Source: Vicinamibacterales bacterium
GTDB lineage: Bacteria > Acidobacteriota > Vicinamibacteria > Vicinamibacterales > SCN-69-37
DNA: 64,000 nucleotides
Direction of reading: 5' to 3'
Assembly (NCBI GenBank): GCA_035606665.1
Contig: DATNEY010000026.1
Coordinates: 215,575-279,574 of the forward strand
Each line of letters starts with the position of its first letter. Positions within the stretch are counted from its first letter, which is position 1. Positions 368-14,552 of the stretch are shown here, one piece after another. Both the position numbers and the translations under genes were made by a program. The notes under the pieces are model-generated. The model had not been told where the DNA came from. It worked only from the letters and a program-made list of their open reading frames with translations, and searched no databases.

Positions 368-1585
368 ATGACGGGTCTTGGACCGTTAGCGATCTCGATC
401 CTGCTTGTCGCAGTCACCGTTGGCCAGACATCCACGCAGAATGGTGAACTAGTCCGGGCAGCTTCGGACCTCGCGGCGCGCATTGCAGCCCTCGCTCCTG
501 GCACCACCGTCGGCGTGGTCGATTTCACGGATCTGCAGGGTCGGAAGACGGAACTGGGGCGCTCCCTCTCAGAGGAGTTGTCCGTTGCTCTAGTCAATAC
601 TTCCAAAGGCCTTCGGATCATCGATCGCGCCAACATCCGTGAGTTGCTCGCCGAGCAGAAACTGGCACAACAAGGAGTCATTGATGAAAGGACTGCGGCC
701 CAACTGGGTAAGATCGCGGGTCTGAGGGTTGTGATCACCGGAATAGTCAGAACTGAGACCTCTGACACGGCCCGAGTAACGCTGAAGGCCGTTGATACTC
801 AAACGGCGGAGACTCTCGCAGCCGCAGCGCTCACCATGCCGATCTCAATGGCTTCGCGACTGGACAGAGACCTCCTTGACCCGCCGCGGGTGTCGAATGC
901 CGCGCCGAATGTTCGGCCGTTTCAGAATGCCTTTCTGACGATGACTGCGGATTCCGCAACTTTCTCAGCGTCTTCCGGGCCAGCGGAGGCATCCGTCAAT
1001 TTGTCATTCGTGATCGAAAGCAGGACATCCGCCGAAGAGCTTCTTCTCTGCGTGGAAAAAAACCTCGTTGATGACCGGGGGACCGACTGGACCCTAGTCA
1101 AAGGCACCAGCCTTGCCGCATTAGCTGAAGGGTACAACGTTACGTACAGTTCAAGCGGCGGCAACACATTCGACCTGGCAGCTCACACTAGGCTGCCGCC
1201 AGGTGTCCGCGAGACCGTGTTCATGCGGTTCAATGGTGATCGCTCACAATCGCGTCCTGCGACCGTGGACCTGTCGATGAAGTGTTACCGAAGGCGCGGG
1301 AACGTCGACGAACCGTTTTCGATCACGATCTCGAGGATACCCATCGGCGGGACCGCTCCGGGCCGACCGGTGGTGTTCTGTGGTGCTTGCGGCCAATCGA
1401 ATCTAGATAGGTTACGTTCGTGCGCGTTTTGCGGTGCGCCGCTGTCTGCCACGTCTGAGCTGGCCTCCGCCGCCACCATCGTCGGTCTCGCTTCGGGTGC
1501 CAGAGAGTCGTCCGGAAGTCGAGCAGCGTCGATTCGCAGTTCATTGTCGAGAGCCTTCGACCTGACCAGTGACGCGCTTGAATAG
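368..1585 (+). CDS. Lipoprotein with FlgO/CsgG/LpoB-like (TolB-N-like) periplasmic domain and C-terminal zinc ribbon (CGACG...CAFCG)
   Basis: Signal-peptide-like N-terminus. Conserved block VGVVDFTDLQGRKTELGRSLSEEL...DRANIRELLAEQKL...GKIAGLRVVITG is shared with four paralogs in this window. C-terminal CxxC-x13-CxxC. Confidence 0.6.
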   Translation: MTGLGPLAISILLVAVTVGQTSTQNGELVRAASDLAARIAALAPGTTVGVVDFTDLQGRKTELGRSLSEELSVALVNTSKGLRIIDRANIRELLAEQKLAQQGVIDERTAAQLGKIAGLRVVITGIVRTETSDTARVTLKAVDTQTAETLAAAALTMPISMASRLDRDLLDPPRVSNAAPNVRPFQNAFLTMTADSATFSASSGPAEASVNLSFVIESRTSAEELLLCVEKNLVDDRGTDWTLVKGTSLAALAEGYNVTYSSSGGNTFDLAAHTRLPPGVRETVFMRFNGDRSQSRPATVDLSMKCYRRRGNVDEPFSITISRIPIGGTAPGRPVVFCGACGQSNLDRLRSCAFCGAPLSATSELASAATIVGLASGARESSGSRAASIRSSLSRAFDLTSDALE

Positions 1586-1602: not shown

Positions 1603-4035
1603 CTATTCAATCGTGATCGGCTCTTGTGCCAGTGCAAGACGGACTGAGCGGCGCGTGTCTGAAATGGGACCGTACCAGATCGCCACACTGAGCAGCATCT
1701 GACCCTTCGGCCACTGCGACTTTAGAGTCAAGATCCGTTCGACGGTGCTTGCGCCAACGGCGATCGTCGCTTCTTGGTCCTCGGTGGCATCGTAGAAATA
1801 GCGGTCGCCCCTCGACAAGTCGGCACCAAGCCACCCATCGAAACCGAATGGCAGCCCACTGTGCGCCTTGTAGATTAGGCGGAGAACAGAACCCTGAGGA
1901 ACGGAGCCATCACGCTGACTCTTGAATAGACGGTCTTCCTTCTCCTTCGCCGCGCGCGATGCGACGCCGTCGAAGCCGGCGTCGACGCGTGGCGACCCGT
2001 CCTCATTCGTGTCGTAGAGGCCCTCCAAGATCGGGCCGCGCGGGCGTTTTGCGCCCTCCAACACTGTCGAGCGGCCCAGACTCAACTTCACAAGCGCCGT
2101 ACCCGTCGCGGCGCGGATAGCCTCGTCTCGCTTTCTAGCAAGCCATTCGTAACGGTACGCTCCATCGGGTCTTATCGAGCGCGCCTTCAGGAACTCTCGC
2201 AGGTCCAGTAACCCGATTGCGTCACCGGGTATTTCGCCGTGATCTAGCGAGACCTGCGGCCACAGGTATTTGCGCCACAGTCTCTTGGCCAGGTCACGCC
2301 GATGCTCGCAGGGGAGCTGTTGCCACACTGCGTCGAACCGGCGTCCCAGCTCACTCACCGTGGATGACAGAGACTGGACATCCCGATTGGCCGGTAACTC
2401 GGCCTGCAGGCCGGCGCAAAAACAACTCGCGAACTTCGTACGGACCTCATCGAGAACCGTGTCGCCCATCCCACCGCCAGGAAGGTTGGCCATCGGTGGG
2501 AATTCGCAACGAGCCCACGCGCTACAGCAAGCATCCAGCACGTCGTGGCCAGACACTAGCCGTAACGGCGCAAGGGAAACGGCAACAAACTCGCGTTCAT
2601 CATGCTTGGCCTGTCTTTCTTCGGCTTCACGTCGCAACACGTCCTCGGCCTCTGCCGCTCGGTGCTGCGCCTCCAGCAGGAGTTGGTAATCACCCCACGT
2701 TGTCCGCGGGTCAAGTTTCAGCCAGTCCAAGTACCGATCCAAATCGATGTGCTTCAGCACGACCTCTCGGAGTAACTCGCCCTCCTCGGAGGTGACGGGG
2801 CTTGAAAGTCGGTCTCGCATTACGGGAAGCCGCGAAGCCATCCAGGACTCGGTGACGAAGAGCCGATCGGGCCCCTTGTTGCATCCGTCAAAAAACGCTG
2901 CGATGACCTGCTCGACACCGAGCCCGCCACGAAGCTGGTCAAAGGTCACTGGACCTATGGATTCCGTCGAATTCTTCCCCGTCTTTCTATTCGCTTCAAT
3001 TCTCGCCTTGATCCGTGCTCTTGTTGCAGTTTCCGTTTTTCTATTCGCTGCAATTCTCGCTTCAATCCGTGCTCTCGTTGCAGTCTCGCCGCTCGGAGGC
3101 GACGCTTCGCTCTTGATCGCCGCGCCATCGAGTAACTCGCGCACTTGCGTTGCTCCAGGGCGCTCAGCCGGGTTCTTGGCAAGGAGTAGCGCTACTAGCT
3201 GGGCCAGTTCTTCTGACGCACCAACCAACCTGTCTGGTACTCGATGCAGGATCTGCGTCGCTATGTCGCCCGTCGAAAAGGGAGGTGCGCCGCTGACCAT
3301 TTCGTAGAGCGTCGCGCCGAGGGCGTACCAGTCGCTGGTTGGCCCAGCTTTGCCCATCACCGCTTCGGGTGCCATGTAGGCCAGCGTGCCCGACGTGTCG
3401 AGTCGTGACACCCGACTCAATGAGTCTCGAACCTCACGCGCGAGCCCGAAGTCCGCGAGCTTGACCGTGCCTTCTGGTCCCAGGAGCACGTTGGCGGGCT
3501 TCACATCGCGATGGAGCACGCCTTTTGCGTGAGCATAGGCAAGCGCTGCGGCTATTTGCGCGCCGACCCGTCGCGCGTCTCGGTCGTCGAGTCGGCGGTG
3601 ACGCAGAAGCAGGGCGGCGAGCGAGACGCCCTCGACATACTCCATCACCAGAAACTTGATCGGCCCCTGCGCCTCGAAGTGGAACATGCGCACGATATCC
3701 TCGTGCGCCAGTTCCATCGACGTCCGAGCCTCAATCTTGAGCCGATCGACTGCGCCGGTATCCTGGCTCAGGACATCCCGCAGGCGCTTAATCGCGCGCG
3801 GCTTCTTCAGCTCAACATCCTCAGCGAGGTAGACTTCACCTGTCGCCCCAGCGCCGATCAGCCGCTCGATGCGATACCGCCCACTGAGGAGCGCGCCGGT
3901 CGCCAGTCCAAGTTGCGTCGGATGCGCGTCGAGTGGATCCATCGGCGCCGCGCTGGCCGATGCAAGCTTGTGCCCACAGCGTCCGCAAAATGAAGTATCG
4001 TCAGGACTCGGCGCGCCGCATCTACGACACAACAT
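1603..4035 (-). CDS. Multidomain Ser/Thr protein kinase: N-terminal zinc ribbon, Hanks-type kinase, 18-aa tandem repeat, ~450-aa C-terminal domain of unknown function
   Basis: CRRCG...CGRCG zinc ribbon. Kinase motifs GAGATGEVY, AIK, HRDVKPANVLL, DFGLAR, APE. Confidence 0.9.
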   Translation of the reverse strand: MLCRRCGAPSPDDTSFCGRCGHKLASASAAPMDPLDAHPTQLGLATGALLSGRYRIERLIGAGATGEVYLAEDVELKKPRAIKRLRDVLSQDTGAVDRLKIEARTSMELAHEDIVRMFHFEAQGPIKFLVMEYVEGVSLAALLLRHRRLDDRDARRVGAQIAAALAYAHAKGVLHRDVKPANVLLGPEGTVKLADFGLAREVRDSLSRVSRLDTSGTLAYMAPEAVMGKAGPTSDWYALGATLYEMVSGAPPFSTGDIATQILHRVPDRLVGASEELAQLVALLLAKNPAERPGATQVRELLDGAAIKSEASPPSGETATRARIEARIAANRKTETATRARIKARIEANRKTGKNSTESIGPVTFDQLRGGLGVEQVIAAFFDGCNKGPDRLFVTESWMASRLPVMRDRLSSPVTSEEGELLREVVLKHIDLDRYLDWLKLDPRTTWGDYQLLLEAQHRAAEAEDVLRREAEERQAKHDEREFVAVSLAPLRLVSGHDVLDACCSAWARCEFPPMANLPGGGMGDTVLDEVRTKFASCFCAGLQAELPANRDVQSLSSTVSELGRRFDAVWQQLPCEHRRDLAKRLWRKYLWPQVSLDHGEIPGDAIGLLDLREFLKARSIRPDGAYRYEWLARKRDEAIRAATGTALVKLSLGRSTVLEGAKRPRGPILEGLYDTNEDGSPRVDAGFDGVASRAAKEKEDRLFKSQRDGSVPQGSVLRLIYKAHSGLPFGFDGWLGADLSRGDRYFYDATEDQEATIAVGASTVERILTLKSQWPKGQMLLSVAIWYGPISDTRRSVRLALAQEPITIE
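2984..3091. repeat. 54-bp x2 tandem duplication inside the kinase gene, encoding ATRARIEARIAANRKTET / ATRARIKARIEANRKTGK
   Basis: Two near-identical 54-nt units (tttctattcgc..gcagt) visible directly in the sequence. Confidence 0.8.
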
Positions 4036-4057: not shown

Positions 4058-4753
4058 CTACCGGCTCAGATCAATCCGGCTCAATTGACACGTGGAATCG
4101 GTGTGGAAGACAGCGAGGATGCTCACACGCCGCTCCTTCGCGAGGTCGGCGTTCGAAACTCCGAGTGCACGCTTCTGCGCGTCGGAAGTTCCCAGTTGCC
4201 GGAAGGCGGTGAGCGTGTTTCCTCGCCTAAGCCACCCTTGCAGCAAGGGTGAATGCGAATCTGAGTAGCTGGCGACCACGACGCAATCGTCCGGCATGCG
4301 GAGCTCGTTCACCAGGTAGTTCCGGACAGCCATGGCCCGGTCTTCGGCGAGTTGCTGGTTTCGTTTCCCCTCGGGCGACGCGTATCCAATGACCTGAAGA
4401 TGATTCGCTCCTCTTTCTCGGCTCTGTGCGCGGGCCCTGGCACTCTGCACAACCTGCTGAGCTACGCGGGCCACCGCCTGTGCGGTGTCAGGCGTCAGAG
4501 CAGATTGTCCGGCTTCGAAGAACCCCTGACCGGTGTTCTTCTCCGAAATGTCAATCAGCGTAGTCGGCAGAGTCGAGCGTGCCTTGCTCACATCCCGCCA
4601 ACCCAAAGCTGCGACGAGCAGGAACATCGCAAATAGCGAGAGCACGAGGGCCGCGCCCGGTCCAAAGTCATCATCCTCATGCGTTCCGACTTGCGGCGGG
4701 AGGCTCACCGAGATCCCAGTAACAGAAAGAGCAGCGTGAGACCAGACGCGCAC
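4058..4753 (-). CDS. MotB/OmpA-like protein: N-terminal TM with a conserved-Asp plug-like motif (DDDFGPGAALVLSLFAMFLLV) plus an OmpA-like peptidoglycan-binding C-terminal domain
   Basis: OmpA_C signature VIGYASPEGKRNQQLAEDRAMAVRNYL. TM segment with an acidic residue at its N-terminal edge as in MotB/ZorB/TolR. Start likely downstream of 4753 (alternative start), since it overlaps the upstream gene. Confidence 0.7.
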   Translation of the reverse strand: MRVWSHAALSVTGISVSLPPQVGTHEDDDFGPGAALVLSLFAMFLLVAALGWRDVSKARSTLPTTLIDISEKNTGQGFFEAGQSALTPDTAQAVARVAQQVVQSARARAQSRERGANHLQVIGYASPEGKRNQQLAEDRAMAVRNYLVNELRMPDDCVVVASYSDSHSPLLQGWLRRGNTLTAFRQLGTSDAQKRALGVSNADLAKERRVSILAVFHTDSTCQLSRIDLSR

Positions 4754-6183
4754 GCTAGAGCGACGAGTGCGTGCGGGACAAAACGAAACACACCGCTTCC
4801 CAGGTGTAATGACGTCATGTCTCTGACGCCGGTAACATCGCGATGGACGCTTGCGATCTCGGACTTCAGTGCGAACACGGCGTGATCCTGCGACATGTCG
4901 ATCTGTTTCGAAATCTGCCTGGCCATTCCAGCGATAGTCCCGACGTCGTAATAGGTATTGAGCTTTTTCAAGAACTCGTCATGCGACTGCGAGATCCCGT
5001 CCAGGAAGCCATCGAGCTTTGCCTTGGCGCCGCCTAGGCTTTCCAGACCTGCTTCAATGGTCTTCGCCTGCTCAGCGATGGCGCTTGCCAAGGTCACGAT
5101 GCCTTCCTTCACCGTCAGGGTCTGCTCCTGCAACCGGGCACTGACATGCTGCAGCGAAGCGAGCAGTTCGTCATTGTTCAGCGAGTTACTCGCCAACGCA
5201 ATCATGGTCGCCGTCGCTTCGTCCAGCTTCCGAAAATATGCGAATTGCTTCTTTCGAACCGACGAGAGCAGCATCGCGCCAAACACGGACACCGATAATC
5301 CGCCGACGCTGGCACCGAACGCGAGAAGCAGGCCATCTAGGACCTTTCGAATCGCGCCCTCGTCGGAAGCGGTGTCGTCAATCGCCTCAGCCGGCATTCC
5401 GGGTTCCGCGATGGCTTGAGCAGCGACGTGCTGCGGCGCTTCGCTGGATGCGATCATGGCCGGGACTGCGTTGATGACGAGCACAAGTCCAATAAAGTGA
5501 CAGAGGATTCCAAGCCGCAAGGCGGTGCGTTGAACGGCCTCCAGTCTCAGCGTGGACTCCATGCTTTCGCGCTGGTACGGTTCGATCAGGTTAATGGTCG
5601 ATTCGAAACGCCGGTCCATGGCCTCGGCGCAGATTCTCTGAAAAAGACGCAGACTGGCAGGTTTGGGATTGTCCGGGTTGTCGGGAAGGTGGAGGCTCTC
5701 GAGATGTGCCACATTCACCCGAGTTCTGGGATCGCGTCGAATCTGCTGCAGGGCCTGCGCCGCACTCTTCTCAACGTGCTGAGCGATCGCCAGATTCACT
5801 CCCAGATCAGCCAGCGCAGAACGGGCATGCGAAACTGCGCGAAACGCCAACAGAAATATCGGGACTGCTCCCCAGGCCACGATGAAATGGACGACATCAA
5901 CTGGTCCGGCAAACGTCGGCCGTGCTCGTGTCAGCGTCCAGGGGACTGCGATGACACCACAGACCGCGAGCAGCAGCACGCCGACGGCGACGAGGCTCCC
6001 GAACCGAGGGTTATCCTCACCGAAGAAGGCACTGCGTCGATAGTCCCGCACCGTCATTCGTGCGCGGCGCGTCGTCGGGTTCTGGTGCGACGTCTGGTCT
6101 TCGCTCGGAGACGACGCTGGTGGCTGATCGGTCTGTTCCATGCTAGTTCTCGTCTTCCGTGTCAGGCGCCGCCGGCGTTCCAA
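4705..6183 (-). CDS. Polytopic membrane protein with MotA/TolQ/ExbB-like topology (TM1-2, cytoplasmic loop, TM3-4) followed by a ~140-aa helical tail and an extra C-terminal TM
   Basis: Hydrophobic segments at about aa 63-85, 100-120, 215-240, 285-310 and 465-490. The TM3/TM4 sequences (IGLVLVIN; AFGASVGGLSVSVFGAML) are reminiscent of ExbB/MotA. It sits immediately upstream of the MotB-like gene. Confidence 0.45.
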   Translation of the reverse strand: MERRRRLTRKTRTSMEQTDQPPASSPSEDQTSHQNPTTRRARMTVRDYRRSAFFGEDNPRFGSLVAVGVLLLAVCGVIAVPWTLTRARPTFAGPVDVVHFIVAWGAVPIFLLAFRAVSHARSALADLGVNLAIAQHVEKSAAQALQQIRRDPRTRVNVAHLESLHLPDNPDNPKPASLRLFQRICAEAMDRRFESTINLIEPYQRESMESTLRLEAVQRTALRLGILCHFIGLVLVINAVPAMIASSEAPQHVAAQAIAEPGMPAEAIDDTASDEGAIRKVLDGLLLAFGASVGGLSVSVFGAMLLSSVRKKQFAYFRKLDEATATMIALASNSLNNDELLASLQHVSARLQEQTLTVKEGIVTLASAIAEQAKTIEAGLESLGGAKAKLDGFLDGISQSHDEFLKKLNTYYDVGTIAGMARQISKQIDMSQDHAVFALKSEIASVHRDVTGVRDMTSLHLGSGVFRFVPHALVALACASGLTLLFLLLGSR

Positions 6184-8314
6184 GCGCTCGAGTCGTGGGG
6201 GCAGGGCCGATCTGGAATGTCGGATCCATCGGCGTCATGATTGAACCTGTGCCGCGCTCGCGGTAGAGCGCCTCCAGATCCGCTTTGACCAGCTTCTTCC
6301 TGGCGTCGATCTCGGCCACCCTCTCGGTATCGCCCTCCACATACGCATTGCGCAGTTGGCTCGAAAGGTCATTCAGGATCAACTCAAAATCCCTCGTCTC
6401 GTTCTCCCAGTTCCGCAAAGGCCGGCCGACAGACTCGTCGTGGCGGAACCAATGAACGATCGCGATGCCAAGTCCAAGGTCCCGCGCGAGTCGCTCATTG
6501 ACCCAGCGTTCGGCGTGAACAACCACATCTCTGCTTGACGCAGAGACAAAGGTGCGTAGGTTCAAGCTGGAGTACTCGTTGATGAACGAGGCAACATGCT
6601 CGCGAACCGTTTCGGCCACGCGTTCGGGCGTCGGTCTCTTCTTCCGGAATTGCGAAAAATGCGTACCGGAAATGCTATTCACAGATGCGCGCACATCGAC
6701 GATGATCTTCGTATTAGGGTCTTCAACTCCTTTCAGGGCCAAGGGCGTCTCGACCAGGAGCTGGTAAGCTTTCATCAATTCGTCCTGACGAGGCGTAAAG
6801 TGAACAAGCGGTTCACTGTCCGGCTTGAATGGCTCACAGGCCGCTCTAATCGCTGACTCGAGCCGCGTCGCCACTGACACTTCGGACGAGCTCCCGTCGC
6901 CGAATAGGCGCAGGTAGAATTCCTCGGGGCTCGTCTTCCGAAGCTCCGCCGCCACGGTCGAGCGAATGCGTTCTTCGACCGTCTGGCGGATCCCGGTGTT
7001 CTTCTTGAATAGCGTGCCGAGCACTGACCGGTCGCCAATGCGCAGCCGCGTCTCGATATCCAGTACTACTTCGCACTCGCGTGACGCGAGTGGGAACGTT
7101 GCGTTTTCAATCGTGCATTCGAAGCCGCGCTGGAGAACGTCGAAATCAAGATTCGTCTGCAACACGAGCCGTGTCGCTGGCGCGTAGCCGATGTTTCGAG
7201 CCGCAGCTCGAATGGCCTCTTCCGTGTCATGAATCTTGTCGTCAAAGCAATCAAAGAGATCGACATAGTAGACGTCGAGAAGATGATGAGTAATAGCCTC
7301 CCGCACCGTCCTGCGAGCCCACGAATCGAGGTCGTCGTGATCGACACCGCTGCTCATCAACAAACCGAGATCCACGAGCTCGATTCGCAATGCGACATCA
7401 ACTTCGACTGGATCGGGATAGTCCAACTGCCGAAACTGCTCCTTGGTGATATCGATCTCGAACGAGCGCTGCACGCCGGCGACTGGCGGCTTCACGTCGA
7501 TCATGAGGCGAGCGACCTCGCGTCCCGCAGGTGCCGCCACAGCGGTAGCGACGGCTTCGACCATCGCTTTCAGCCGACCCTGGCTCTCGAACTGCCAGAG
7601 ATGGAGGCCGACCTGTGTTCGGAATAGGTCCCGCATCTCTCGCCTGAGCGTGTCTTCGACGATGTCACGACGGCCGGTAGGCATGAACGCGAGAACCGAG
7701 CCGGGCGCCAGGCGAAGATCGAGATCAAGCGACAGCTCCAGGTCCGGTTTGTAATCCCGGAGCACCACCGGCATTTTCGGAGCCCGAATCTCGAGTACCT
7801 CCTTGGCCTCGGCTTCGCCGCGAATCAGGATCTCAGCGCTCATAACTTGAAGGAGTGCTTCATCCTTGGCAACCTTGACGATGTGGGCTTTGAGGGGCTC
7901 CCTGAATCGGCCGAAGCTCTCGATAAACTGAGCGGGTGTTACGTTGCGGTCACCCATGAACCCGCCAATCCATCGATTGATGAGTATCTCGACAGCCCGG
8001 TCCGGATTGGGCGCCTCCCTCACCAGATCGACGAGCCTGCGCGCGTCGGCTTCCGTGTGGCCGGCAAACTGCAGCGCCAGGGATATCTGGAGCGGGAGCC
8101 GCCAGTCGCGCTCTGGAGCGTCGATGTCGCGGTCGATTCTGATGTTGGCCCACCCGGAATGAGCCTGCGGCCGGGTCACACAATAGAACCACTTTTCCGA
8201 GAACCAGCCACCAGCAACGGAGGCTTCGACGACGATTCCGTCAATCGCCGCCTCGTGTTTCTCGGACCGGTCGATTCTTCGAATAATCGGGTCCATTTGG
8301 AAATTGGTCGACAT
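6143..8314 (-). CDS. Hypothetical 723-aa cytoplasmic protein (possible SPFH-like repeats, unverified)
   Basis: Long ORF with high GC3 and no recognisable catalytic motif. Co-directional with, and overlapping, the flanking genes. Confidence 0.65.
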   Translation of the reverse strand: MSTNFQMDPIIRRIDRSEKHEAAIDGIVVEASVAGGWFSEKWFYCVTRPQAHSGWANIRIDRDIDAPERDWRLPLQISLALQFAGHTEADARRLVDLVREAPNPDRAVEILINRWIGGFMGDRNVTPAQFIESFGRFREPLKAHIVKVAKDEALLQVMSAEILIRGEAEAKEVLEIRAPKMPVVLRDYKPDLELSLDLDLRLAPGSVLAFMPTGRRDIVEDTLRREMRDLFRTQVGLHLWQFESQGRLKAMVEAVATAVAAPAGREVARLMIDVKPPVAGVQRSFEIDITKEQFRQLDYPDPVEVDVALRIELVDLGLLMSSGVDHDDLDSWARRTVREAITHHLLDVYYVDLFDCFDDKIHDTEEAIRAAARNIGYAPATRLVLQTNLDFDVLQRGFECTIENATFPLASRECEVVLDIETRLRIGDRSVLGTLFKKNTGIRQTVEERIRSTVAAELRKTSPEEFYLRLFGDGSSSEVSVATRLESAIRAACEPFKPDSEPLVHFTPRQDELMKAYQLLVETPLALKGVEDPNTKIIVDVRASVNSISGTHFSQFRKKRPTPERVAETVREHVASFINEYSSLNLRTFVSASSRDVVVHAERWVNERLARDLGLGIAIVHWFRHDESVGRPLRNWENETRDFELILNDLSSQLRNAYVEGDTERVAEIDARKKLVKADLEALYRERGTGSIMTPMDPTFQIGPAPTTRALGTPAAPDTEDEN

Positions 8315-8328
8315 GGCGCTCGCGCTCC

Positions 8329-10944
8329 TTACAGATCAAGTGAATGGGTCGTCGATGTCGAAGCCATCCGACGAAGCCGTCTCAACTGACTTCGCAGTCC
8401 CTTCAGGTGGGCTTCGATCGCGCGCCGGTCATTTGCCGGAAGAACTGGACCGGCGAGCAGTGTCGCCACTACGCGTCCGAAGCCGTCGTCAATTGCTCCA
8501 AGGCATTGCCGCAACGAGGCCAGACCGGCTTTCGGTACGACGGTGCGAAGCGAGGCACCCACCGCAAGCTCCGTCTTGTCGCCAGGAAAGCAAGTCAACC
8601 AGTCTGTCAGGGTCATCGCGCGAAACAGCACTGGTGAAGGACCAACGGCGCTCACCGTGTCCCGACTGGCTGCCGAGAAGGCCTCCCACCAGGCCATCAG
8701 CAGAATCGGCGCCGCTTCCAACGCGTCGCTCATCACGCGCCGGCGCAGGGAGAGAGGGAACATCCACAAGCCGGGCAATGCGGCCACGCGAATAGCGCGT
8801 GCCTCGATGGTCCTCGTTGCAAGCGGATGCCACAGCCACGAGACAAGACTCTGAACCTGACCCTGTTCGCCATCTTGAAGCACTCCCCCAAGAGGAGAGT
8901 GGACTTGAAGTCCGGCGAGGGACGACTCACAGATCTCCACCAGGAGACGCGCTGCGACCTCTTCTCTCAGGTTGGAACCTGACGCGTCGATGGGAATCCA
9001 GTCCGGTCCCCATAGCGTCGAGATTGGCAAACTGCCTTGCCGGATGGCTCCGCGCATCTGCCGAACGACCTGATCCCTGACGTCTGAAGGCGCCTCACTT
9101 AGGAGCCGTTTTGCCAGAGTCAGCGAACCCTGGAGAAGACCACCGACGCCCCAAAGTCGTCGAAGAAGCCCTGCCGCGAGCCAATGAGCGCCCAAGTCGA
9201 TGAAACGGCCCACGGCAGAAACTGCGCGATCGGGCTGGTGCCACTCGCGAATAACGTCCCCGGTCCAGACGAGTAACGCGGCACGCCGCTCCCTCGTCAA
9301 GCTCTGCCACAGAAGTGCCAGGCGTTCGTTCTCGCCGACGGCTCCTCCGGCGGCCGGTGCGCACGCCAGAATCCACTGCGCCAGTACCTGGTTGTCGTAC
9401 GTTGGGCTGGCGATAGCCTGAACCGCCGCCACCTGCGATGCGCCCCGCGACATATCCTCCTGCCCGAGGATGAACTGTGGGTCGCGAACGTAACCAGCGA
9501 GCCGGCCGAACACCCACTGGAATTGAGACTCCCCAAACAGCGCGGTCAGCTCGCCCCGCCAGGACCGATCGCCCAGCGCCGCAATCACAGCCCCGGAGCT
9601 CGACTTCAGAATGCGAATGCCGCAGGCAGACATCAACTGAGTTGCCTGGCGCCGCCACATTCGCTCGAGGCGGAACGCTGGGCTATCGTCAGGAGTTGCG
9701 CCGGCCGCAAGACAGGCGTCAGGTGCGGCGAACGGGATAAGTGTTCGGACGATGACATCGAAGCGGTCGAGGGGCAAGCCCGGCAGTGGCTCTTCGGGAT
9801 TCTCCCGGAAGAACGCGATCACGAAAAGAATTAGTTCGTTGAGAGCGCGCTCTTCGGGGGGTTCTACGTTCAGTAGTGCGTTCCACGTGGGAGGGTTGTC
9901 GTCACGGCATGCCGGGCCACCTTCGATCCCGTGTGCTCGGTCGATTCGCTGTTTGAGGCTTCCATCCGCGGCACCTTGAGTGAGCAATTCTGCGACACGT
10001 TCGTCCGTGCCGCCCCACAGTCCAGCCTTTCGTTGTCGCATGAACTCCTGTTCAAGAACGGCGGCGGCGCCACCAAAGGCGGCACGCAGACGGGGACCAA
10101 CGAAATCGACTTCGGTTTCCACCCATTCTCTCGGCAGCCCACCCTGTAGTCCGGCCGCCTTCATCAAGCTTGGAGTCGTGAGAACCAGGACCCAAGTGGC
10201 CGTGTCTTCAAGAACGCGTTCGAGGTCGGTCCGCCGGTACGGATCAATGCACAGGCTGGTCAGGAATCTTTCGGCAGACCTGTCCGCAGCGTAGACAACA
10301 ACAACTGCTGGGTCTCCTGTTCTTGACTCCAGGAGGTCCCACACGACAGGCATTTCGCCGCGAACGACCTGAAGCTTGCGGCATGAGACAAACTGGGACT
10401 GGAACGGCACCAGCCGAGCGGCCGAATTCAACACATCCCTATCGACGCATGTCAGAAACAGGACGCGGCGTTCATGTAGGCACCTTGCCCATCGCTCAAC
10501 AGCGGACGAGTCAAGCGGGACGAGCCCGACCGTGTTTGAATGCAGGGCCTCCAGGTACTGCTGTGGATTCTCCCGGTCCTCCTGGAATGCTTGCGTGATG
10601 TTGTTGATGATGGTGGTCGTGTTGGAGGTGCTGGTGATGTTGCCCCCCACTACCTGAGTACGTGCCACAGCCACGCCAGACGGAAACACAGTGTCTGTCT
10701 TAGCGGCGAGCGCGTCGCGCTGATCAGCCAAATCACCGTCGATGACGGTGGAGGCCTGCGGCGCTGACATCGCCGGCTCTGGCACGGGCGGTGGACGCTT
10801 CTCCACTAGAGCGCTACCGCACTCGCCGCAGAACTTCACGCCCGCCGAAAACTCGCGGTTGCAGCCAGCGCACCGCAATGGCGGTGCGACGGACACATCC
10901 GCTCGTTCCTGCGATTCAGCCACGTCCGCCGTCGGGTCCGCCAT
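8329..10944 (-). CDS. Hypothetical 871-aa protein with N-terminal zinc ribbon (CAGCN-x11-CGECG)
   Basis: Long ORF, first gene of a four-gene minus-strand operon. No Walker or other motifs recognised. Confidence 0.7.
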   Translation of the reverse strand: MADPTADVAESQERADVSVAPPLRCAGCNREFSAGVKFCGECGSALVEKRPPPVPEPAMSAPQASTVIDGDLADQRDALAAKTDTVFPSGVAVARTQVVGGNITSTSNTTTIINNITQAFQEDRENPQQYLEALHSNTVGLVPLDSSAVERWARCLHERRVLFLTCVDRDVLNSAARLVPFQSQFVSCRKLQVVRGEMPVVWDLLESRTGDPAVVVVYAADRSAERFLTSLCIDPYRRTDLERVLEDTATWVLVLTTPSLMKAAGLQGGLPREWVETEVDFVGPRLRAAFGGAAAVLEQEFMRQRKAGLWGGTDERVAELLTQGAADGSLKQRIDRAHGIEGGPACRDDNPPTWNALLNVEPPEERALNELILFVIAFFRENPEEPLPGLPLDRFDVIVRTLIPFAAPDACLAAGATPDDSPAFRLERMWRRQATQLMSACGIRILKSSSGAVIAALGDRSWRGELTALFGESQFQWVFGRLAGYVRDPQFILGQEDMSRGASQVAAVQAIASPTYDNQVLAQWILACAPAAGGAVGENERLALLWQSLTRERRAALLVWTGDVIREWHQPDRAVSAVGRFIDLGAHWLAAGLLRRLWGVGGLLQGSLTLAKRLLSEAPSDVRDQVVRQMRGAIRQGSLPISTLWGPDWIPIDASGSNLREEVAARLLVEICESSLAGLQVHSPLGGVLQDGEQGQVQSLVSWLWHPLATRTIEARAIRVAALPGLWMFPLSLRRRVMSDALEAAPILLMAWWEAFSAASRDTVSAVGPSPVLFRAMTLTDWLTCFPGDKTELAVGASLRTVVPKAGLASLRQCLGAIDDGFGRVVATLLAGPVLPANDRRAIEAHLKGLRSQLRRLRRMASTSTTHSLDL

Positions 10945-11013: not shown

Positions 11014-11043
11014 ACTATAGGTAATTTAGGGTAATTAAGTCAA
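11014..11043 (-). promoter_or_regulatory. Sigma70-like promoter TTGACT-N18-TATAGT on the minus strand upstream of the 871-aa gene. Contains a TAGGGTAAT motif.
   Basis: Hexamers read directly from the sequence (reverse complement of 11014-11043) in an AT-rich intergenic gap. Confidence 0.45.
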
Positions 11044-11162: not shown

Positions 11163-11870
11163 TCACCGCCGCGACTCCGGGCCGAGGTGGCGCAAGAGAA
11201 TCGGGCGCACAATCGGACCGCCTTGTCGATTAACGACATAGGTCCCGACCTCGCCGGCCGTAACTTCCACGGTTTCCACAATCAGGTTCCTTGCCCCGCG
11301 GGCCAGGAACGCCGCCCGGGCCTCATCGCCTTCAACGAGGTCGAGCGACGGCAACTCACTTCTCAGTCGAGCGAAGCAAAGGAGCAGACGCTCGTCCTGT
11401 GCCGGAGGCTGGAAGCGAATCAGAGGACTCACGTAGTCCTGGGTCGCCTTGACGGGCGTGCCCGCCGTATCGCCGTCTACAGGCAGCAACAGGGACGCCC
11501 GTCCCGATGTGTTCAGCGCCCAGACAGAAAGGAATCCGTCGACATTGGTTCGGACATGAATGCGGATCCGATCGCCGGACGCGAAGGAATGCGTGTCCGC
11601 CACAGGCCCGCGGCCTGTCAAGTCAATCCAGTAATGCACTCCAACGGATCGCGTACCCGTGGGAACCGGCGCCACTGGGCGAGGCGCTCCCGTGCTCGAC
11701 GCCGGTGGGGTCGCCGGCACGCGGGGCGGCGACGGAGCAGCCTTCGCCGTCGATCCTGTTGCGGGGTTGTAGAACAGTGACCGCGCGCCGGTCGGCTCCT
11801 GGACACCCATGCCGGCTGCCAGCGCAACCGCGGCGAATGTCGTCGAGAGCCGCGTCATGCCTGATCGCAT
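11163..11870 (-). CDS. Secreted DUF4384-like domain protein (caspase-associated beta-sandwich)
   Basis: Signal peptide. Motif GDRIRIHVRTNVDGFLSVWALNTSGRASLLLP is typical of the DUF4384 family that commonly accompanies bacterial caspase-domain proteins. Confidence 0.6.
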   Translation of the reverse strand: MRSGMTRLSTTFAAVALAAGMGVQEPTGARSLFYNPATGSTAKAAPSPPRVPATPPASSTGAPRPVAPVPTGTRSVGVHYWIDLTGRGPVADTHSFASGDRIRIHVRTNVDGFLSVWALNTSGRASLLLPVDGDTAGTPVKATQDYVSPLIRFQPPAQDERLLLCFARLRSELPSLDLVEGDEARAAFLARGARNLIVETVEVTAGEVGTYVVNRQGGPIVRPILLRHLGPESRR

Positions 11871-11895
11871 TGGTCGTGCCCTTCCATCTGGTCAG

Positions 11896-13191
11896 CTAGC
11901 CGCCAGGCTTCCTGGCGATCCGATCCTTCAGATACAGGTTCACCGAATCGCGGCTCCGTACGATCATCGGATGCTGCGACTCGCGCTTTTCGCTCATTAC
12001 GGCATCCGTGACTCGGAGCCTCACATGGCCGAAGACATCGTCGACGGACAACGGGCCTGGTTTCGTGAGCGCATCGAGCAAGAAATAGGTGAAGTAGCCG
12101 TGTTGAATCTTGTCGTCCTCCCAGGACCGCTCGGCCTGACTGCTCGACGTTATGATGATGCGGCCCACGCCCTGGGGGACCCGGCCTCTGCCGATTTCTG
12201 ATCCGGTATCAACCACCAGTGATCGCGACCCCGCCAGACCCTCTTCCAACCGGGCCATCGACACGCCAGTCTCGGTCGTCAGGGCGCGACTGCTGGCGGT
12301 CCATCCCGACGGCAACTCTTTGTAGGTGCCGCCGCTATAGCACGTGTCGAGGAACGCGATGACGCGTTCCGACTTGATTCGACTGCCGAGCGCTCTGAGC
12401 AGGTCGTCCATCGCGTAAGCAGTCGAGTACAGGCCGCTGACCTCGGTGTCGTACGTGACGATGTAATTCACACCGGCCGTGTCGAGATTCTCAGGAGACC
12501 CATGGCTGCTCATGTAGACCACCACGAGGTCCTCTGGTTCGGCATTCTTCGCGAGGTAGTCGATCTCCATCGTAATGTTCTTGCGCGTCGCCGCTTCGTC
12601 CAGGAGTGTCTTGACGGAGTCGAACTCGCAGCATTGCTTGAGTGCCGCGGAGACCGCCTCCGCATCACGTGCGGTGTACTTGAGCGCGTTGATTCTCGGG
12701 TCCTGAAAACGGCTGATTCCCACTACCAGTGCCCACCTCTTGCGCACGACCGAGGAAACGTGGATGGCGGGCACTGCCGGTGGCGGTGAAGCTACGCCTG
12801 GGGAGCGGACGGCTCCTGCGGCCGAGGTGGATGTGCTGGCCAGGGGCACCGGCGCATACAGCGACTCGCCGTTGCGCATCGCGGCAGAGTTCCAGGTCTC
12901 GGCCTGTTTGCGCCAGTACTGCGCTTTGGAGTCCTTCAGTTCTGCGCCAACAAGGCTCAGGAAATACCATGCATCCCCAAGGCCTGCGCAGAAGTCTGTC
13001 GCGCGCTTCAGATTCTGCAGAGCATCTTCAAGACTTGCCCGCTCGGCGTTCGGCTTGAGACTCTCACGCGTGCTCCGGACGAGCTCTGCCGCGGTATCGC
13101 ACCTGGTACCCTGCTCGGCAGAACCGGACGTGGACCCATACGGAAACGCGAGCGCGCAAACCCCGACGACCAACCATTTCAGAGAAGTCAT
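11896..13191 (-). CDS. Secreted caspase-like (peptidase C14, orthocaspase) protein
   Basis: KRWALVVGISRF...YMSSHGS (His) ...IAFLDTCYSGG (Cys) catalytic dyad contexts. Signal peptide. C-terminal HGYFTYFLLDAL block. ATGA start/stop overlap with the upstream gene. Confidence 0.85.
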   Translation of the reverse strand: MTSLKWLVVGVCALAFPYGSTSGSAEQGTRCDTAAELVRSTRESLKPNAERASLEDALQNLKRATDFCAGLGDAWYFLSLVGAELKDSKAQYWRKQAETWNSAAMRNGESLYAPVPLASTSTSAAGAVRSPGVASPPPAVPAIHVSSVVRKRWALVVGISRFQDPRINALKYTARDAEAVSAALKQCCEFDSVKTLLDEAATRKNITMEIDYLAKNAEPEDLVVVYMSSHGSPENLDTAGVNYIVTYDTEVSGLYSTAYAMDDLLRALGSRIKSERVIAFLDTCYSGGTYKELPSGWTASSRALTTETGVSMARLEEGLAGSRSLVVDTGSEIGRGRVPQGVGRIIITSSSQAERSWEDDKIQHGYFTYFLLDALTKPGPLSVDDVFGHVRLRVTDAVMSEKRESQHPMIVRSRDSVNLYLKDRIARKPGG

Positions 13192-14552
13192 TGCGCCGAC
13201 CAGTTCCAGTTTCCTGGACCTCCACTTGGTGTAGACACAAGTGGAGCTTTCTTGGTCGCCTGTCTCGCACGTATGGCTGCCATGACCTTGGCTGAGACCT
13301 TCCCGGCCAGGAGCTGCTTGTAACCCTCAGGTGACAGGTCGAACGCGACGGTCTTGGCGTTCTTGATGGCATCGAGGAGGCTGGCTTCGTCCAGGCCGCC
13401 CGCGACGAGTTCAACCACATCCTTATTGCCGAACGCTGCTGGCTTCGTCGTAGCCGGCGGAGTCGTCGTGAGTGCCCTGGCGCCAGACTTGCTGCTTGCG
13501 GAATCAGCCGCCTGTTTGGCGGCGGCCGCCGCCGCGATAATGGCCTGTTGACGTTCGAGTTGGGCGTAGGCCGCGATGCCCTCCTGGATTCTGATCTGGG
13601 GGGTCTGGAAGTACTTTTCGTCGACCTTCATTTCGATGGCTCTTCCGTAGAGGCTCGAGGCTTGCTCGAGCAATTTCTTCGACGTCGGGATGTCCTCAGA
13701 GCTGTAGGCCATGGCTTCCCTGGCGACGCCGAGATTGAACAGCCGATACGCTTCCTTCTTTGGATCCTTCAGCGGTGGTATCTGTTCCAGTTGCTCCAGC
13801 ATGCGATTCCACAGTCCCGCTTGACCGAGCTTGTTGATCTCGTCGATGGCGTCCGGTCGGGCGAGCATTACGGTTACCGGCTCGGTCGTGGGCGTCAGCC
13901 GACGCATCACCTGCTCGACGGCTGAATCGATCAACAGTTGTTCCACGCGGCTTTGGTCGGGTGGCGTCGTGCCAGCCAGGAACTCGCGCGTGTAGGTGGG
14001 CGTGAACGACTGCGAATCAATGGAGGCCCCGCTGACGCGATCCTGGACCTGGACGGCGACCGCCAAATCACCCTGCACCGCGGTGAAGTGTTGCGTCTCG
14101 TTCACGGTCGAGTACACATCCTGAGTTTCGTATGCTTTCTTCTTGGCGTTCCACACCTGCTTCGTGCCCGTCTTCTTGCTGACCTGCACTTGACGCTGGC
14201 CCGCCGACTGCTTGGTGTCGAGCCTGCTGATCGTGCACATGATGAGCGTATCTGGTTGAGCCGTTTCAACCCGTAGCCGTGCGTCACCGGCCAGGAGGCG
14301 CGTCTCGACCGTGGATTTGAACCGCTGTGCGATGTTCTCGCGCCCATTTGTCTGGGAAACGACCTCGACTTTGATTGCGGTACCGGTAATCAGCACTGTC
14401 GGAGGGTGCTTTCGATTCAGCGTGACCTCAGTTTTTTGCTGCGTAAGTCCCTTGCGGAATTGGGCTTCGGCCCGGGGCGGATTCCCCAACGCTACCGCGA
14501 CAACGACACTGGCAACGCCTGCAGCAAGAACCGTGTGGACGCTTCTCATCAT
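13188..14552 (-). CDS. Secreted hypothetical protein (start reassigned to the ATGATG at 14552, overlapping the upstream stop)
   Basis: SD GGAGGA then ATGATG. Signal peptide MMRSVHTVLAAGVASVVVAVALG. The ORF-track N-terminal extension is low-complexity. Confidence 0.7.
   Translation of the reverse strand: MMRSVHTVLAAGVASVVVAVALGNPPRAEAQFRKGLTQQKTEVTLNRKHPPTVLITGTAIKVEVVSQTNGRENIAQRFKSTVETRLLAGDARLRVETAQPDTLIMCTISRLDTKQSAGQRQVQVSKKTGTKQVWNAKKKAYETQDVYSTVNETQHFTAVQGDLAVAVQVQDRVSGASIDSQSFTPTYTREFLAGTTPPDQSRVEQLLIDSAVEQVMRRLTPTTEPVTVMLARPDAIDEINKLGQAGLWNRMLEQLEQIPPLKDPKKEAYRLFNLGVAREAMAYSSEDIPTSKKLLEQASSLYGRAIEMKVDEKYFQTPQIRIQEGIAAYAQLERQQAIIAAAAAAKQAADSASSKSGARALTTTPPATTKPAAFGNKDVVELVAGGLDEASLLDAIKNAKTVAFDLSPEGYKQLLAGKVSAKVMAAIRARQATKKAPLVSTPSGGPGNWNWSAQ

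What the first reader, a model, noticed from the sequence alone, without database searches (positions are those of the whole stretch)
4058..10944. MotA-like/MotB-like stator pair at the end of an operon with two large uncharacterised proteins (Zorya-like logic?)
The last two genes encode a polytopic protein with MotA/ExbB-like topology plus a long helical tail, and a MotB-like protein with a plug-like acidic TM and an OmpA peptidoglycan-binding domain. They are preceded in the same operon by an 871-aa zinc-ribbon protein and a 723-aa protein with no recognisable domains, under a promoter at ~11014-11043. Ion-driven stator pairs coupled to unknown effectors are the organising principle of Zorya-type and related systems. 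This arrangement (effectors first, stator last, no flagellar or Ton context) does not match any canonical system I recognise.
Basis: inference. Interest (0 to 1): 0.75.

Follow-up and report, generated by a model that had tools for sequence, protein, structure and literature searches.

The report
Zorya-like motor with SPFH-repeat partner
A rare four-gene operon in a soil acidobacterium pairs a ZorA/ZorB-like ion-driven membrane motor with a protein made of five stomatin-type (SPFH) domains and a large helical protein; it is probably an undescribed relative of the Zorya anti-phage systems.

The parts
11014..11043 (-). Sigma-70-like promoter candidate (TTGACT, 18 nt, TATAGT) in the AT-rich gap upstream of X
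   Evidence: It matches 10 of 12 positions. GGAG lies 6 nt before the X ATG at 10944.
8329..10944 (-). X: 871-aa soluble protein. It has a variable, low-complexity N-terminus with a CxxC...CxxC zinc ribbon (residues 25-42). The conserved core (about residues 150-860) is an alpha/beta-like N-terminal part followed by a large Trp-rich helical part. No known domain.
   Evidence: no Pfam, NCBIfam or PADLOC family; no PDB sequence relative; alignments. X-like proteins always sit immediately upstream of Y-like proteins (L013 1.6e-50, L017 1.6e-23, L016 1.4e-17); no hydrophobic segment.
6143..8314 (-). Y: 723-aa soluble tandem SPFH/Band-7 protein. It has five beta-sheet-plus-helix modules (about 1-153, 155-263, 265-374, 377-495, 503-625). 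A helical hairpin follows (633-687), then a disordered Pro-rich tail.
4705..6141 (-). A: ZorA/ExbB-superfamily stator subunit (478 aa from ATG 6141). It has four core TM helices (48-66, 81-99, 212-230, 271-289) and a conserved cytoplasmic loop (HLPDNP...DRRFES). The TM3-TM4 loop is acidic. A helical tail of about 160 aa follows, then a fifth, C-terminal hydrophobic helix (458-476).
   Evidence: PADLOC ZorA2/ZorA3 hits in 14 of 14 homologs. AF2 pLDDT 71; 39 of the 40 best Foldseek PDB hits are ExbB, ZorA (8qyd) or TolQ; hydropathy and charge; start codon. No Pfam MotA_ExbB hit for this copy.
4058..4708 (-). B: MotB/ZorB-type subunit (216 aa from GTG 4708, which overlaps the A stop). It carries an acidic cluster, an invariant FGPG motif, a single TM (18-36) and an OmpA-like peptidoglycan-binding domain.
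   Evidence: Pfam OmpA 3.2e-10 (residues 78-166 of the long ORF).. No PADLOC ZorB hit for this copy. Distant cassette B proteins hit ZorB1 weakly at the N-terminal TM (0.0017-0.01).
1603..4035 (-). Zn-ribbon Ser/Thr protein kinase (810 aa) with an uncharacterised C-terminal half of about 450 aa. It is probably co-transcribed in this window only and is not part of the conserved cassette.
   Evidence: Pkinase 9e-51; 22-nt gap after the B stop; no terminator-like site there. Other loci carry different genes at this position.

Best explanation
The locus encodes a four-component, Zorya-like membrane-to-cytoplasm signalling machine, most likely an anti-phage or conflict system.

A and B would form a ZorAB/MotAB-type complex in the inner membrane (stoichiometry 5:2 by analogy). 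The OmpA-like domain of B tethers it to peptidoglycan and senses envelope perturbation. Ion flow turns or reshapes the A ring and its roughly 160-residue cytoplasmic helical tail.

The cassette carries no nuclease partners like ZorC/D/E. It carries Y, a soluble protein of five SPFH domains plus a coiled-coil hairpin, and X, its obligate helical partner. SPFH proteins characteristically build rings or cages on membranes around a client: FliL around MotAB, HflK/C around FtsH, stomatin around channels. Y, with X as adaptor or sensor, would therefore assemble on the cytoplasmic face around the motor tail. There it would either gate the motor's ion conduction or convert its movement into a large-scale assembly change.

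The output is either ion leak and membrane depolarisation (abortive infection) or activation of variable neighbouring effectors. Those neighbours are caspase- or trypsin-FGE-sulfatase proteins, a TIR protein, and here a kinase.

Shown: gene order, homology, folds, topology and context. Inferred: complex formation, stoichiometry, the ring, the trigger, the output and the defence role.
For: - A is ZorA-like. A distant member has a sub-threshold Pfam MotA_ExbB hit, and another has a precomputed weak hit.
- B has the MotB/ZorB architecture and is translationally coupled to A.
- Y is a tandem SPFH protein at high model confidence.
- The X-Y-A-B order is conserved from 67% down to about 18-30% identity: L001, L002, L004, L006, L016, L017 and L020.
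- X-Y is an autonomous pair (L013).
- X and Y have no TM or signal-like hydrophobic segment, so they are cytoplasmic like ZorC/D.
- Flanks differ in every locus and are rich in conflict-system domains: TIR, caspase, CHAT, nSTAND-WD40, trypsin-nSTAND, PLD, HTH and DDE transposases.
- One Y relative is fused to an HNH nuclease, the ZorE-type domain.
- Distribution is very sporadic. The word-indexed search found 14 clusters at 90% identity among 5.8 billion, and a motif-based scan found one hit in 185,579 species genomes. Both methods are limited to close relatives.
- SPFH rings around stators and Band-7 'superstructure-forming' modules in conflict systems both have precedent (PMC8794807, PMC6426602, PMC7159879).
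- ZorAB mechanism and tail signalling are described in PMC11946911 and PMC11890865.
Against: - No phage-defence assay exists for any member.
- PADLOC has no model for X or Y.
- The window's B does not hit ZorB models.
- No protein in the core cassette has a recognisable catalytic effector domain.
- The A tail is much shorter than the long tails reported for all Zorya types (PMC11946911) and ends in a hydrophobic helix that ZorA is not described as having.
- In the window's subfamily the expected TM Asp of B is Ala, and the Gly-Thr of A TM3 is Cys-His. Canonical proton-driven rotation is therefore not assured.
- Profile searches of A against PDB sequences and hhalign against E. coli ExbB were not significant.
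- Acidobacterial genomes are so rich in caspase, kinase and FGE genes that 'defence island' context is weaker evidence than in Enterobacteria.
Confidence: 0.58

Rival explanations
1. This is a housekeeping or stress-response envelope machine rather than immunity. A Tol/Ton-like PMF motor would work with a cytoplasmic SPFH scaffold to organise membrane microdomains, control a client protein or maintain envelope integrity. HflK/C-FtsH, QmcA-YbbJ and flotillins do comparable jobs.
For: The closest structural relatives of Y are all membrane-scaffold proteins. The core cassette has no enzymatic effector. One B homolog (L004) carries an extra C-terminal TonB_C domain, which suggests force transduction towards the outer membrane. 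In L009 the cassette is followed by a housekeeping thiC gene.
Against: The distribution is extremely patchy. The close subfamily was found in one of 185,579 species representatives (motif-based scan, close relatives only) and in 14 clusters overall. The flanking genes are non-syntenic and variable, and dominated by TIR, caspase, CHAT, STAND and PLD genes, with transposases next to L020. A Y relative is fused to an HNH nuclease. In sequence A is closer to ZorA profiles than to the generic MotA_ExbB model.
Confidence: 0.22
2. This is a canonical Zorya system (type I, II or III) that merely looks divergent because it comes from Acidobacteriota.
For: ZorA profiles of all three types hit the A family. 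Zorya III also has two partner proteins of unknown function flanking zorAB (PMC8565338).
Against: X and Y and their relatives give no hit to PADLOC ZorC, D, E, F or G models. They also give no hit to Pfam DUF3348 or DUF2894, the ZorF/ZorG domains, at E<=1. Y is an SPFH repeat protein, a fold not reported for any Zor protein in the papers read. The A tail is about 160 aa rather than long. The window's B does not hit ZorB models.
Confidence: 0.05
3. This is a motility-type stator (flagellar MotAB, gliding AglRQS/GldLM-like) whose partner genes are structural accessories, with Y acting like FliL.
For: FliL is an SPFH-fold protein that rings MotAB (PMC8794807, PMC6426602), and FliL structures are among the hits for Y. 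A has the 4-TM, N-in topology typical of MotA rather than the 3-TM ExbB/ZorA layout.
Against: No flagellar, gliding or T9SS gene lies within 8-10 kb in any locus examined. Y is cytoplasmic with no TM, whereas FliL is a periplasmic, membrane-anchored single-domain protein. No MotA or MotB NCBIfam or Pfam model reaches threshold.
Confidence: 0.05

Closest known systems
Zorya anti-phage systems (ZorAB with ZorC/D, ZorE or ZorF/G; Doron 2018, PADLOC 2021, PMC11946911, PMC11890865)
   Same: A MotA/ExbB-superfamily subunit with a helical cytoplasmic tail is encoded next to a MotB-type subunit that has a peptidoglycan-binding domain. They sit in one operon with two soluble cytoplasmic proteins, in variable, defence-like neighbourhoods. 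In sequence A is closest to ZorA profiles.
   Different: The partners are an SPFH-repeat protein and a novel helical protein, not ZorC-G. The partners are encoded upstream of the motor genes. The tail is about 160 aa against roughly 500 aa in E. coli ZorA, and it ends in a hydrophobic helix. A has four core TMs rather than three. The window's B lacks a ZorB profile match and lacks the TM Asp at the position seen in distant cassettes.
FliL-MotAB (SPFH-fold ring around flagellar stator units; PMC8794807, PMC6426602)
   Same: An SPFH-fold protein is genetically or physically paired with a MotAB-type ion-driven unit. FliL structures are among the structural hits for Y.
   Different: FliL is a small, single-domain, membrane-anchored periplasmic protein in flagellar operons. 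Y is a 723-aa, five-domain, soluble cytoplasmic protein with no flagellar context.
SPFH cage or ring assemblies (HflK/C-FtsH, QmcA-YbbJ, stomatin, prohibitin, flotillin, erlin)
   Different: All of these have one or two SPFH domains and an N-terminal membrane anchor. Y has five tandem modules and no anchor. Its partner is a stator-like motor rather than a protease or NfeD.
ExbBD / TolQR 5:2 motors
   Same: They are the best Foldseek matches for the A model (TM-score to target up to 0.65). One B homolog (L004) even carries a TonB_C domain.
   Different: ExbD and TolR lack an OmpA-like domain. No TonB, TolA or Pal genes are adjacent. The Pfam MotA_ExbB model does not reach threshold, and hhalign against E. 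coli ExbB is not significant.
NTP-dependent conflict systems of multicellular bacteria (Kaur, Burroughs, Iyer and Aravind 2020, PMC7159879)
   Same: They share the genomic milieu: EACC1-type caspase, CHAT, TIR, nSTAND, DO-GTPase, vWA-PP2C-kinase. That paper lists Band-7-like domains as 'superstructure-forming' modules in such systems.
   Different: That paper does not mention MotA (no occurrence in the text search), and its only SPFH/Band-7 passage concerns vWA proteins. The cassette here contains no NTPase.

Membership tests
Zorya (any type) | ZorA: MotA/ExbB-superfamily membrane protein matching ZorA profiles | tested here: met
   PADLOC ZorA2/ZorA3 hits for 14 of 14 homologs, best 4.8e-11 (window copy 1e-6). 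Distant cassette A proteins reach 1e-11. Foldseek hits include ZorA 8qyd.
Zorya (any type) | Long cytoplasmic ZorA tail (reported as conserved in all types, PMC11946911) | tested here: inconclusive
   A helical tail is present but only about 160 aa. It is followed by a C-terminal hydrophobic helix.
Zorya (any type) | ZorB: single TM with the essential Asp (D26 in EcZorB) plus a peptidoglycan-binding domain | tested here: inconclusive
   The OmpA domain is met (3.2e-10). There is no PADLOC ZorB hit for the window copy. In the window subfamily the position that carries Asp in the distant cassettes (FGPGTD) is Ala, and a conserved Asp/Glu sits 6 residues upstream.
Zorya type I / II / III | Type-specific partners: ZorC+ZorD, ZorE (HNH), or ZorF (DUF3348)+ZorG (DUF2894) | tested here: not met
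   No PADLOC or Pfam hit of X, Y or their relatives to any of these.
Zorya (any type) | Protection against phage that depends on all components | not testable with these tools
   Needs an experiment.
MotA/ExbB/TolQ superfamily (5:2 motor A subunit) | Pfam PF01618 MotA_ExbB match above the gathering score | tested here: not met
   No hit for the window A. There are sub-threshold hits for the distant cassette members L017 (E 0.0036, 17.5 bits against a 22.9 cutoff) and L020 (precomputed, weak).
MotA/ExbB/TolQ superfamily (5:2 motor A subunit) | ExbB/TolQ/ZorA-type fold of the membrane core | tested here: met
   AF2 model with pLDDT 71 (core 80-92). Of the 40 best Foldseek PDB hits, 39 are ExbB, ZorA or TolQ, with probability up to 1.0 and TM-score to target up to 0.65. 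E-values are only about 1e-2.
MotA/ExbB/TolQ superfamily (5:2 motor A subunit) | A5B2 assembly and ion-driven rotation | not testable with these tools
   No multimer prediction was available.
SPFH / Band-7 family (for Y) | Pfam PF01145 Band_7 match | tested here: inconclusive
   The window Y itself gives no hit at E<=1. Of 61 family members, 20 hit (best 5.3e-9), as do three long relatives.
SPFH / Band-7 family (for Y) | SPFH alpha/beta fold followed by a coiled coil | tested here: met
SPFH / Band-7 family (for Y) | N-terminal membrane anchor (TM or hairpin) | tested here: not met
   No hydrophobic segment anywhere in Y.
Flagellar stator MotAB | Flagellar gene context and MotA/MotB equivalog models | tested here: not met
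   NCBIfam MotB PRK06667 scores only 15 bits against a 300 cutoff. No flagellar genes appear in any locus.

The most novel reading that the evidence does not exclude
X-Y-A-B would define a new family of membrane-motor immune systems. In it, a 5:2 ZorAB-type motor is coupled in the cytoplasm to a giant SPFH cage (Y, five SPFH domains per chain, with X as adaptor or sensor), not to nucleases. This would be the first cytoplasmic counterpart of the FliL-stator pairing. The SPFH assembly would gate the motor's ion path, so that depolarisation or a cage rearrangement is itself the output. X-Y would be a portable module that can plug into other membrane partners, such as the DUF4407 protein encoded beside the pair in L013. 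In the window's subfamily the ion path has been re-engineered: the B Asp is moved six residues, and Gly-Thr in A is replaced by Cys-His. That points to a different coupling ion, a His relay or a metal-dependent gate.
Probability: 0.3. Interest if true: 0.85.

Novelty: new variant of a known kind. Interest (0 to 1): 0.7.

Why it matters
Zorya is the only known immune system built on a flagellar-type ion motor, and how the motor's movement is read out in the cytoplasm is still being worked out. This cassette keeps the motor but swaps the nuclease partners for a multi-SPFH scaffold plus a novel helical protein. That would be a natural experiment on what the ZorA tail actually transmits.

It would extend stator-SPFH coupling, known from FliL and MotAB, from the periplasm to the cytoplasm. 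It would also assign a context to a family of at least 316 clusters of uncharacterised 750-aa proteins.

The concerted replacement of the canonical Asp/Thr ion-pathway residues within one subfamily offers a handle on how 5:2 motors can change their coupling chemistry.

The X-Y pair also occurs without the motor, which suggests a modular effector or sensor unit worth adding to defence-system catalogues.

Tried and rejected
- Single-sequence and profile searches of A against PDB sequences found only coiled-coil noise. The same searches for X and Y found nothing.
- hhalign of the A and B family profiles against single E. coli ExbB and ExbD sequences was not significant (probability 1% and 0.3%). 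Residue-level equivalence to ExbB T148, ZorA T147 or ExbD D25 is therefore inference only.
- Pfam, NCBIfam and PADLOC scans on X gave nothing, even for distant relatives.
- tblastn of Y and A against 72,556 plasmids gave no match.
- No A relative was found in IMG/VR viral contigs. The Y alignment was too divergent for that scan.
- The genome contigs and metagenome-contig scans with the A alignment found only 1 and 4 loci. These scans use motifs, so they see only the close subfamily.
- The afdb50 fold library was unavailable, so no taxonomic view of Y-like folds was obtained.
- I tested whether the second gene pair in L002 (623 and 705 aa, upstream of a DUF4407 gene) is a paralogous X-Y. It is not; both are TPR proteins.
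- Literature searches for SPFH with Zorya, for DUF4407 and for MotAB-like defence motors found no description of this cassette.
Full report
**1. What is in the sequence**

Four long minus-strand ORFs fill window positions 4058-10944. I call them X (8329-10944, 871 aa), Y (6143-8314, 723 aa), A (ORF 4705-6183) and B (ORF 4058-4753).
- The X stop is followed by GGAG, and 14 nt after the stop comes the Y ATG.
- The Y stop TAG (6145-6143) is one base from an ATG at 6141.
- The A stop TGA overlaps a GTG at 4708 in a GTGA motif.
- With these starts A is 478 aa and B is 216 aa. That fits the homologs: B proteins are 202-218 aa, and the A-B overlap in L002 is also 4 nt. It also retains a conserved P.T.RARM motif that the database start (P0001, 450 aa) cuts off.
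- The only sizeable upstream gap holds a TTGACT-18-TATAGT site at 11043-11014. This is suggestive, not statistically strong.
- No terminator-like site separates B from a Zn-ribbon Ser/Thr kinase gene (1603-4035) that starts 22 nt downstream.
- The window comes from a Vicinamibacterales (Acidobacteriota) MAG, according to the source name of the identical protein P0019.

**2. The motor pair**

A has no Pfam or NCBIfam family, and neither the sequence nor its profile finds PDB relatives. Other evidence places it in the ZorA/ExbB group.
- It hits four PADLOC ZorA models (1e-6 to 4e-4).
- When all 14 homologs are scanned, every one hits ZorA2 and ZorA3 models (best 4.8e-11). Nothing else is consistent across them.
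- An AlphaFold2 model built on the 14-sequence alignment has mean pLDDT 71 and a core of 80-92. Searched against the PDB with Foldseek, 39 of its 40 best matches are ExbB, ZorA (8qyd and mutants) and TolQ chains. Probabilities are mostly 0.8-1.0 and TM-scores to the target reach 0.65, but E-values are only about 1e-2.
- Distant cassette members strengthen the link. The A protein of L020 hits ZorA3 at 1e-11 and ZorA1 at 5e-10. The A proteins of L017 and L020 give weak Pfam MotA_ExbB matches.

Hydropathy shows four core TM segments, an acidic TM3-TM4 loop, a strongly basic stretch after TM4, a helical tail of about 160 residues and a fifth hydrophobic helix at the extreme C-terminus. This is a MotA-like N-in, four-TM topology with a cytoplasmic tail. 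The tail is much shorter than the roughly 500-residue tail of E. coli ZorA, and long tails are reported for all Zorya types (PMC11946911).

B has a single TM (residues 18-36) and an OmpA-like domain (Pfam 3.2e-10; weak PDB profile hits to OmpA-like and MotY domains). The window's B gives no PADLOC ZorB hit. The B proteins of L020 and L017 hit ZorB1 weakly over the N-terminal TM region (0.0017 and 0.01). By architecture, adjacency and coupling, A-B is a ZorAB/MotAB-type pair. The 5:2 stoichiometry and rotation are inferred by analogy.

**3. Y is a tandem SPFH protein**

Word-indexed homology search found only three relatives of Y. A profile search of 1.84 billion cluster representatives found 316 clusters at E<=1e-3 and 229 at E<=1e-10. 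Most are 720-800 aa and align over their full length.
- With a 117-sequence alignment, AlphaFold2 gives mean pLDDT 91.2. The model has five successive beta-sheet-plus-helix modules, a helical hairpin (633-687) and a disordered tail.
- Foldseek's confident matches are all SPFH proteins: stomatin, HflK/C, prohibitin, erlin, flotillin and FliL. The major vault protein and a few uricase chains appear at low probability.
- Independently, 20 of 61 family members hit Pfam Band_7 (best 5.3e-9), as do three longer relatives. One of those, P0045 (1723 aa), has an N-terminal HNH nuclease.
- The window's Y itself gives no Pfam hit, which is why it looked domain-less.
- Y has no hydrophobic segment. Unlike classical SPFH proteins, it has no membrane anchor of its own.

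**4. X**

X has no family in Pfam, NCBIfam or PADLOC and no PDB sequence relative.
- Its N-terminal 100-150 residues are variable and low-complexity. A CxxC...CxxC zinc ribbon is present in the window copy and, in a different form, in the distant L017 copy.
- The conserved core looks like an alpha/beta region followed by a long Trp-rich helical region. No conserved catalytic-looking motif appears: the invariant residues are mostly Trp, Leu and Pro, with single Gly, Gln and Cys.
- Its most informative property is genetic. An X-like gene lies immediately upstream of every complete Y-like gene examined, except the HNH-fused L019: L013 (HMM 1.6e-50), L017 (1.6e-23), L016 (1.4e-17), and an unscored 894-aa gene in L020.

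**5. Conservation and context**

The order X-Y-A-B recurs widely.
- It occurs in a Terriglobales MAG (L001), in three metagenome loci of the close subfamily (L002/3, L004, L006), and as partial cassettes in L005/L011, L007 and L009.
- It also occurs in three distant loci, L016, L017/18 and L020. There Y is only about 18-22% identical to the window's Y and A is about 30% identical.
- X-Y also occurs without A-B. In L013/L014 the pair is preceded by a faint DO-GTPase2 match, a DUF4407 membrane protein and a 995-aa protein, and followed by CAP12/PCTIR-type TIR and PLD genes. In L015 the Y-like gene is followed by a convergent TIR gene.
- The flanks differ in every locus. They carry TIR, nSTAND-WD40, trypsin-nSTAND, caspase, CHAT-TPR, S8 peptidase, AAA, vWA-PP2C-kinase, HTH and DDE-transposase genes.
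- In the window the neighbours are an EACC1-type caspase, a DUF4384 protein, Zn-ribbon kinases and CsgG/FlgO-like lipoproteins.
- No flagellar, gliding, T9SS, Tol or Ton gene is seen in any locus.
- The close A subfamily is very rare. It comprises 14 clusters among 5.8 billion. It was found in one of 185,579 species genomes and four metagenome loci by motif scan. None was found in plasmids or viral contigs.

**6. An unexplained feature of the ion path**

A gapless alignment anchored on the invariant FGPG motif compares the B proteins.
- Distant cassettes (L007, L017, L020) read [S/Q]-FGPG-T-D-L-[I/V]. This places an Asp at the start of the TM, where MotB, ExbD and ZorB carry their essential Asp. 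That equivalence rests on my knowledge of those families and on the ZorB1 hit coordinates; it is not a significant alignment.
- All seven B proteins of the window subfamily read [D/E]-FGPG-[A/T]-A-L-V. The Asp position is Ala, and a conserved carboxylate appears six residues upstream.
- In parallel, A TM3 reads GILGTFVGL in the distant members and in P0014. It reads GILCHFIGL in all 13 close members.
- The two changes co-occur perfectly in the loci available.

This could mean a relocated proton acceptor with a His relay, a different ligand or metal, or a motor that no longer rotates. I cannot decide between these.

**7. Mechanism proposed**

The best-supported reading is a Zorya-like machine.
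- The A-B complex sits in the inner membrane, tethered to peptidoglycan through B. It responds to envelope perturbation with ion-coupled movement of the A ring and tail, as shown for ZorAB (PMC11946911, PMC11890865).
- The cytoplasmic readout differs from Zorya. Y, alone or with X, would oligomerise as SPFH proteins do. FliL forms rings around stator units (PMC8794807), and HflK/C, stomatin, flotillin, erlin, prohibitin and QmcA appear among the fold-search hits as membrane complexes or cages. Y would enclose or contact the tail. There it would either gate ion conduction or turn motor movement into an assembly change.
- The core has no enzyme. The output is therefore either depolarisation (abortive infection) or activation of variable neighbours.
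- One recurrent candidate neighbour is a convergent gene just after B. Its FGE-sulfatase domain is 40-57% identical between loci, about as conserved as the cassette itself, while its N-terminal protease domain is swapped between caspase and trypsin. In the window this position is taken by the kinase.
- All steps beyond homology, fold, topology and synteny are inference.

**8. Comparison and verdict**

The cassette works like Zorya but fails membership in types I-III, because ZorC-G are absent by PADLOC and Pfam. It deviates in tail length, TM number, ZorB profile match and the Asp position.
- It is not a flagellar or Tol/Ton motor by context.
- Y is an SPFH-fold protein by structure but lacks the family's membrane anchor and has an unusual five-module layout.
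- Nothing in the searchable literature links SPFH proteins to ZorAB-type motors or describes this cassette. Band-7-like domains are mentioned only as 'superstructure-forming' modules of vWA-MoxR conflict systems (PMC7159879).

I rate it a new variant of a known kind, with interest 0.7. The main rival is a non-immune envelope or scaffold function. It is supported by the scaffold nature of SPFH proteins, the lack of an effector and one B-TonB_C fusion. It is opposed by the sporadic distribution, the variable conflict-gene flanks and the HNH fusion.

Noticed in passing
window 4640-4708 (B N-terminus) and 5497-5511 (A TM3, codons 211-215); also L007, L017 and L020: The presumed ion-pathway residues change in concert. 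In the window subfamily B reads [D/E]FGPG[A/T]A and A reads GILCH. Distant cassettes have [S/Q]FGPGTD and GILGT. The canonical TM Asp is Ala here, with a new carboxylate six residues upstream, and Gly-Thr is replaced by Cys-His.
   Followed up: partly
L002 10013-11344, L004 10033-11943, L005 2733-4640 (= L011 2704-4611), L006 7895-9259: A convergent gene immediately downstream of B recurs in four distinct close loci. It encodes an FGE-sulfatase domain that is 40-57% identical between loci, fused to different N-terminal proteases (trypsin, caspase) or to none. It may be a fifth, loosely attached component. In L001 this position holds a TIR gene, in the window a kinase, and in L009 thiC.
   Followed up: partly
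L004 9044-9985: The B homolog of this locus carries an extra C-terminal TonB_C domain after the OmpA-like domain.
   Followed up: no
L019 285-5456 (P0045): A 1723-aa relative of Y has an N-terminal HNH endonuclease domain fused to the SPFH-repeat region. It appears to stand alone on its 6.4-kb contig.
   Followed up: no
L013 1-10316: The X-Y pair occurs without any ZorAB-like genes. It is preceded by a faint DO-GTPase2 match, a DUF4407 membrane protein and a 995-aa unknown protein, and followed by CAP12/PCTIR-type TIR and PLD genes. This suggests that X-Y is a portable module with alternative membrane partners.
   Followed up: partly
window 4705-4776 (A C-terminus): A ends in a strongly hydrophobic helix (ALVALACASGLTLLFLLLG). 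It is conserved in the close subfamily and in P0014 but absent from the L017 and L020 A proteins. It could return the tail tip to the membrane or insert into a partner.
   Followed up: no
window 1603-4035, 8329-10944 and 19425-20909: Three proteins in the window start with the same kind of short N-terminal zinc ribbon: the two Ser/Thr kinases and X. The second kinase also has a DnaJ_C-like domain.
   Followed up: no
window 11163-15433: Directly upstream on the same strand lie four genes: a DUF4384 protein, an EACC1-type caspase (Peptidase_C14, NCBIfam caspase_w_EACC1 at 83.7 bits, below its 140-bit cutoff), a 535-aa protein with no family and a TPR protein. This looks like a separate caspase-centred conflict module.
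   Followed up: no
window 368-1585 and 17742-19073: Two paralogous CsgG/FlgO-like putative lipoproteins bracket the region on opposite strands.
   Followed up: no
L002 11476-19359: Next to the cassette lies a second module: two TPR proteins, a DUF4407 protein, then vWA, PP2C phosphatase and protein kinase genes. DUF4407 therefore appears near this system in two unrelated loci (L002 and L013).
   Followed up: partly
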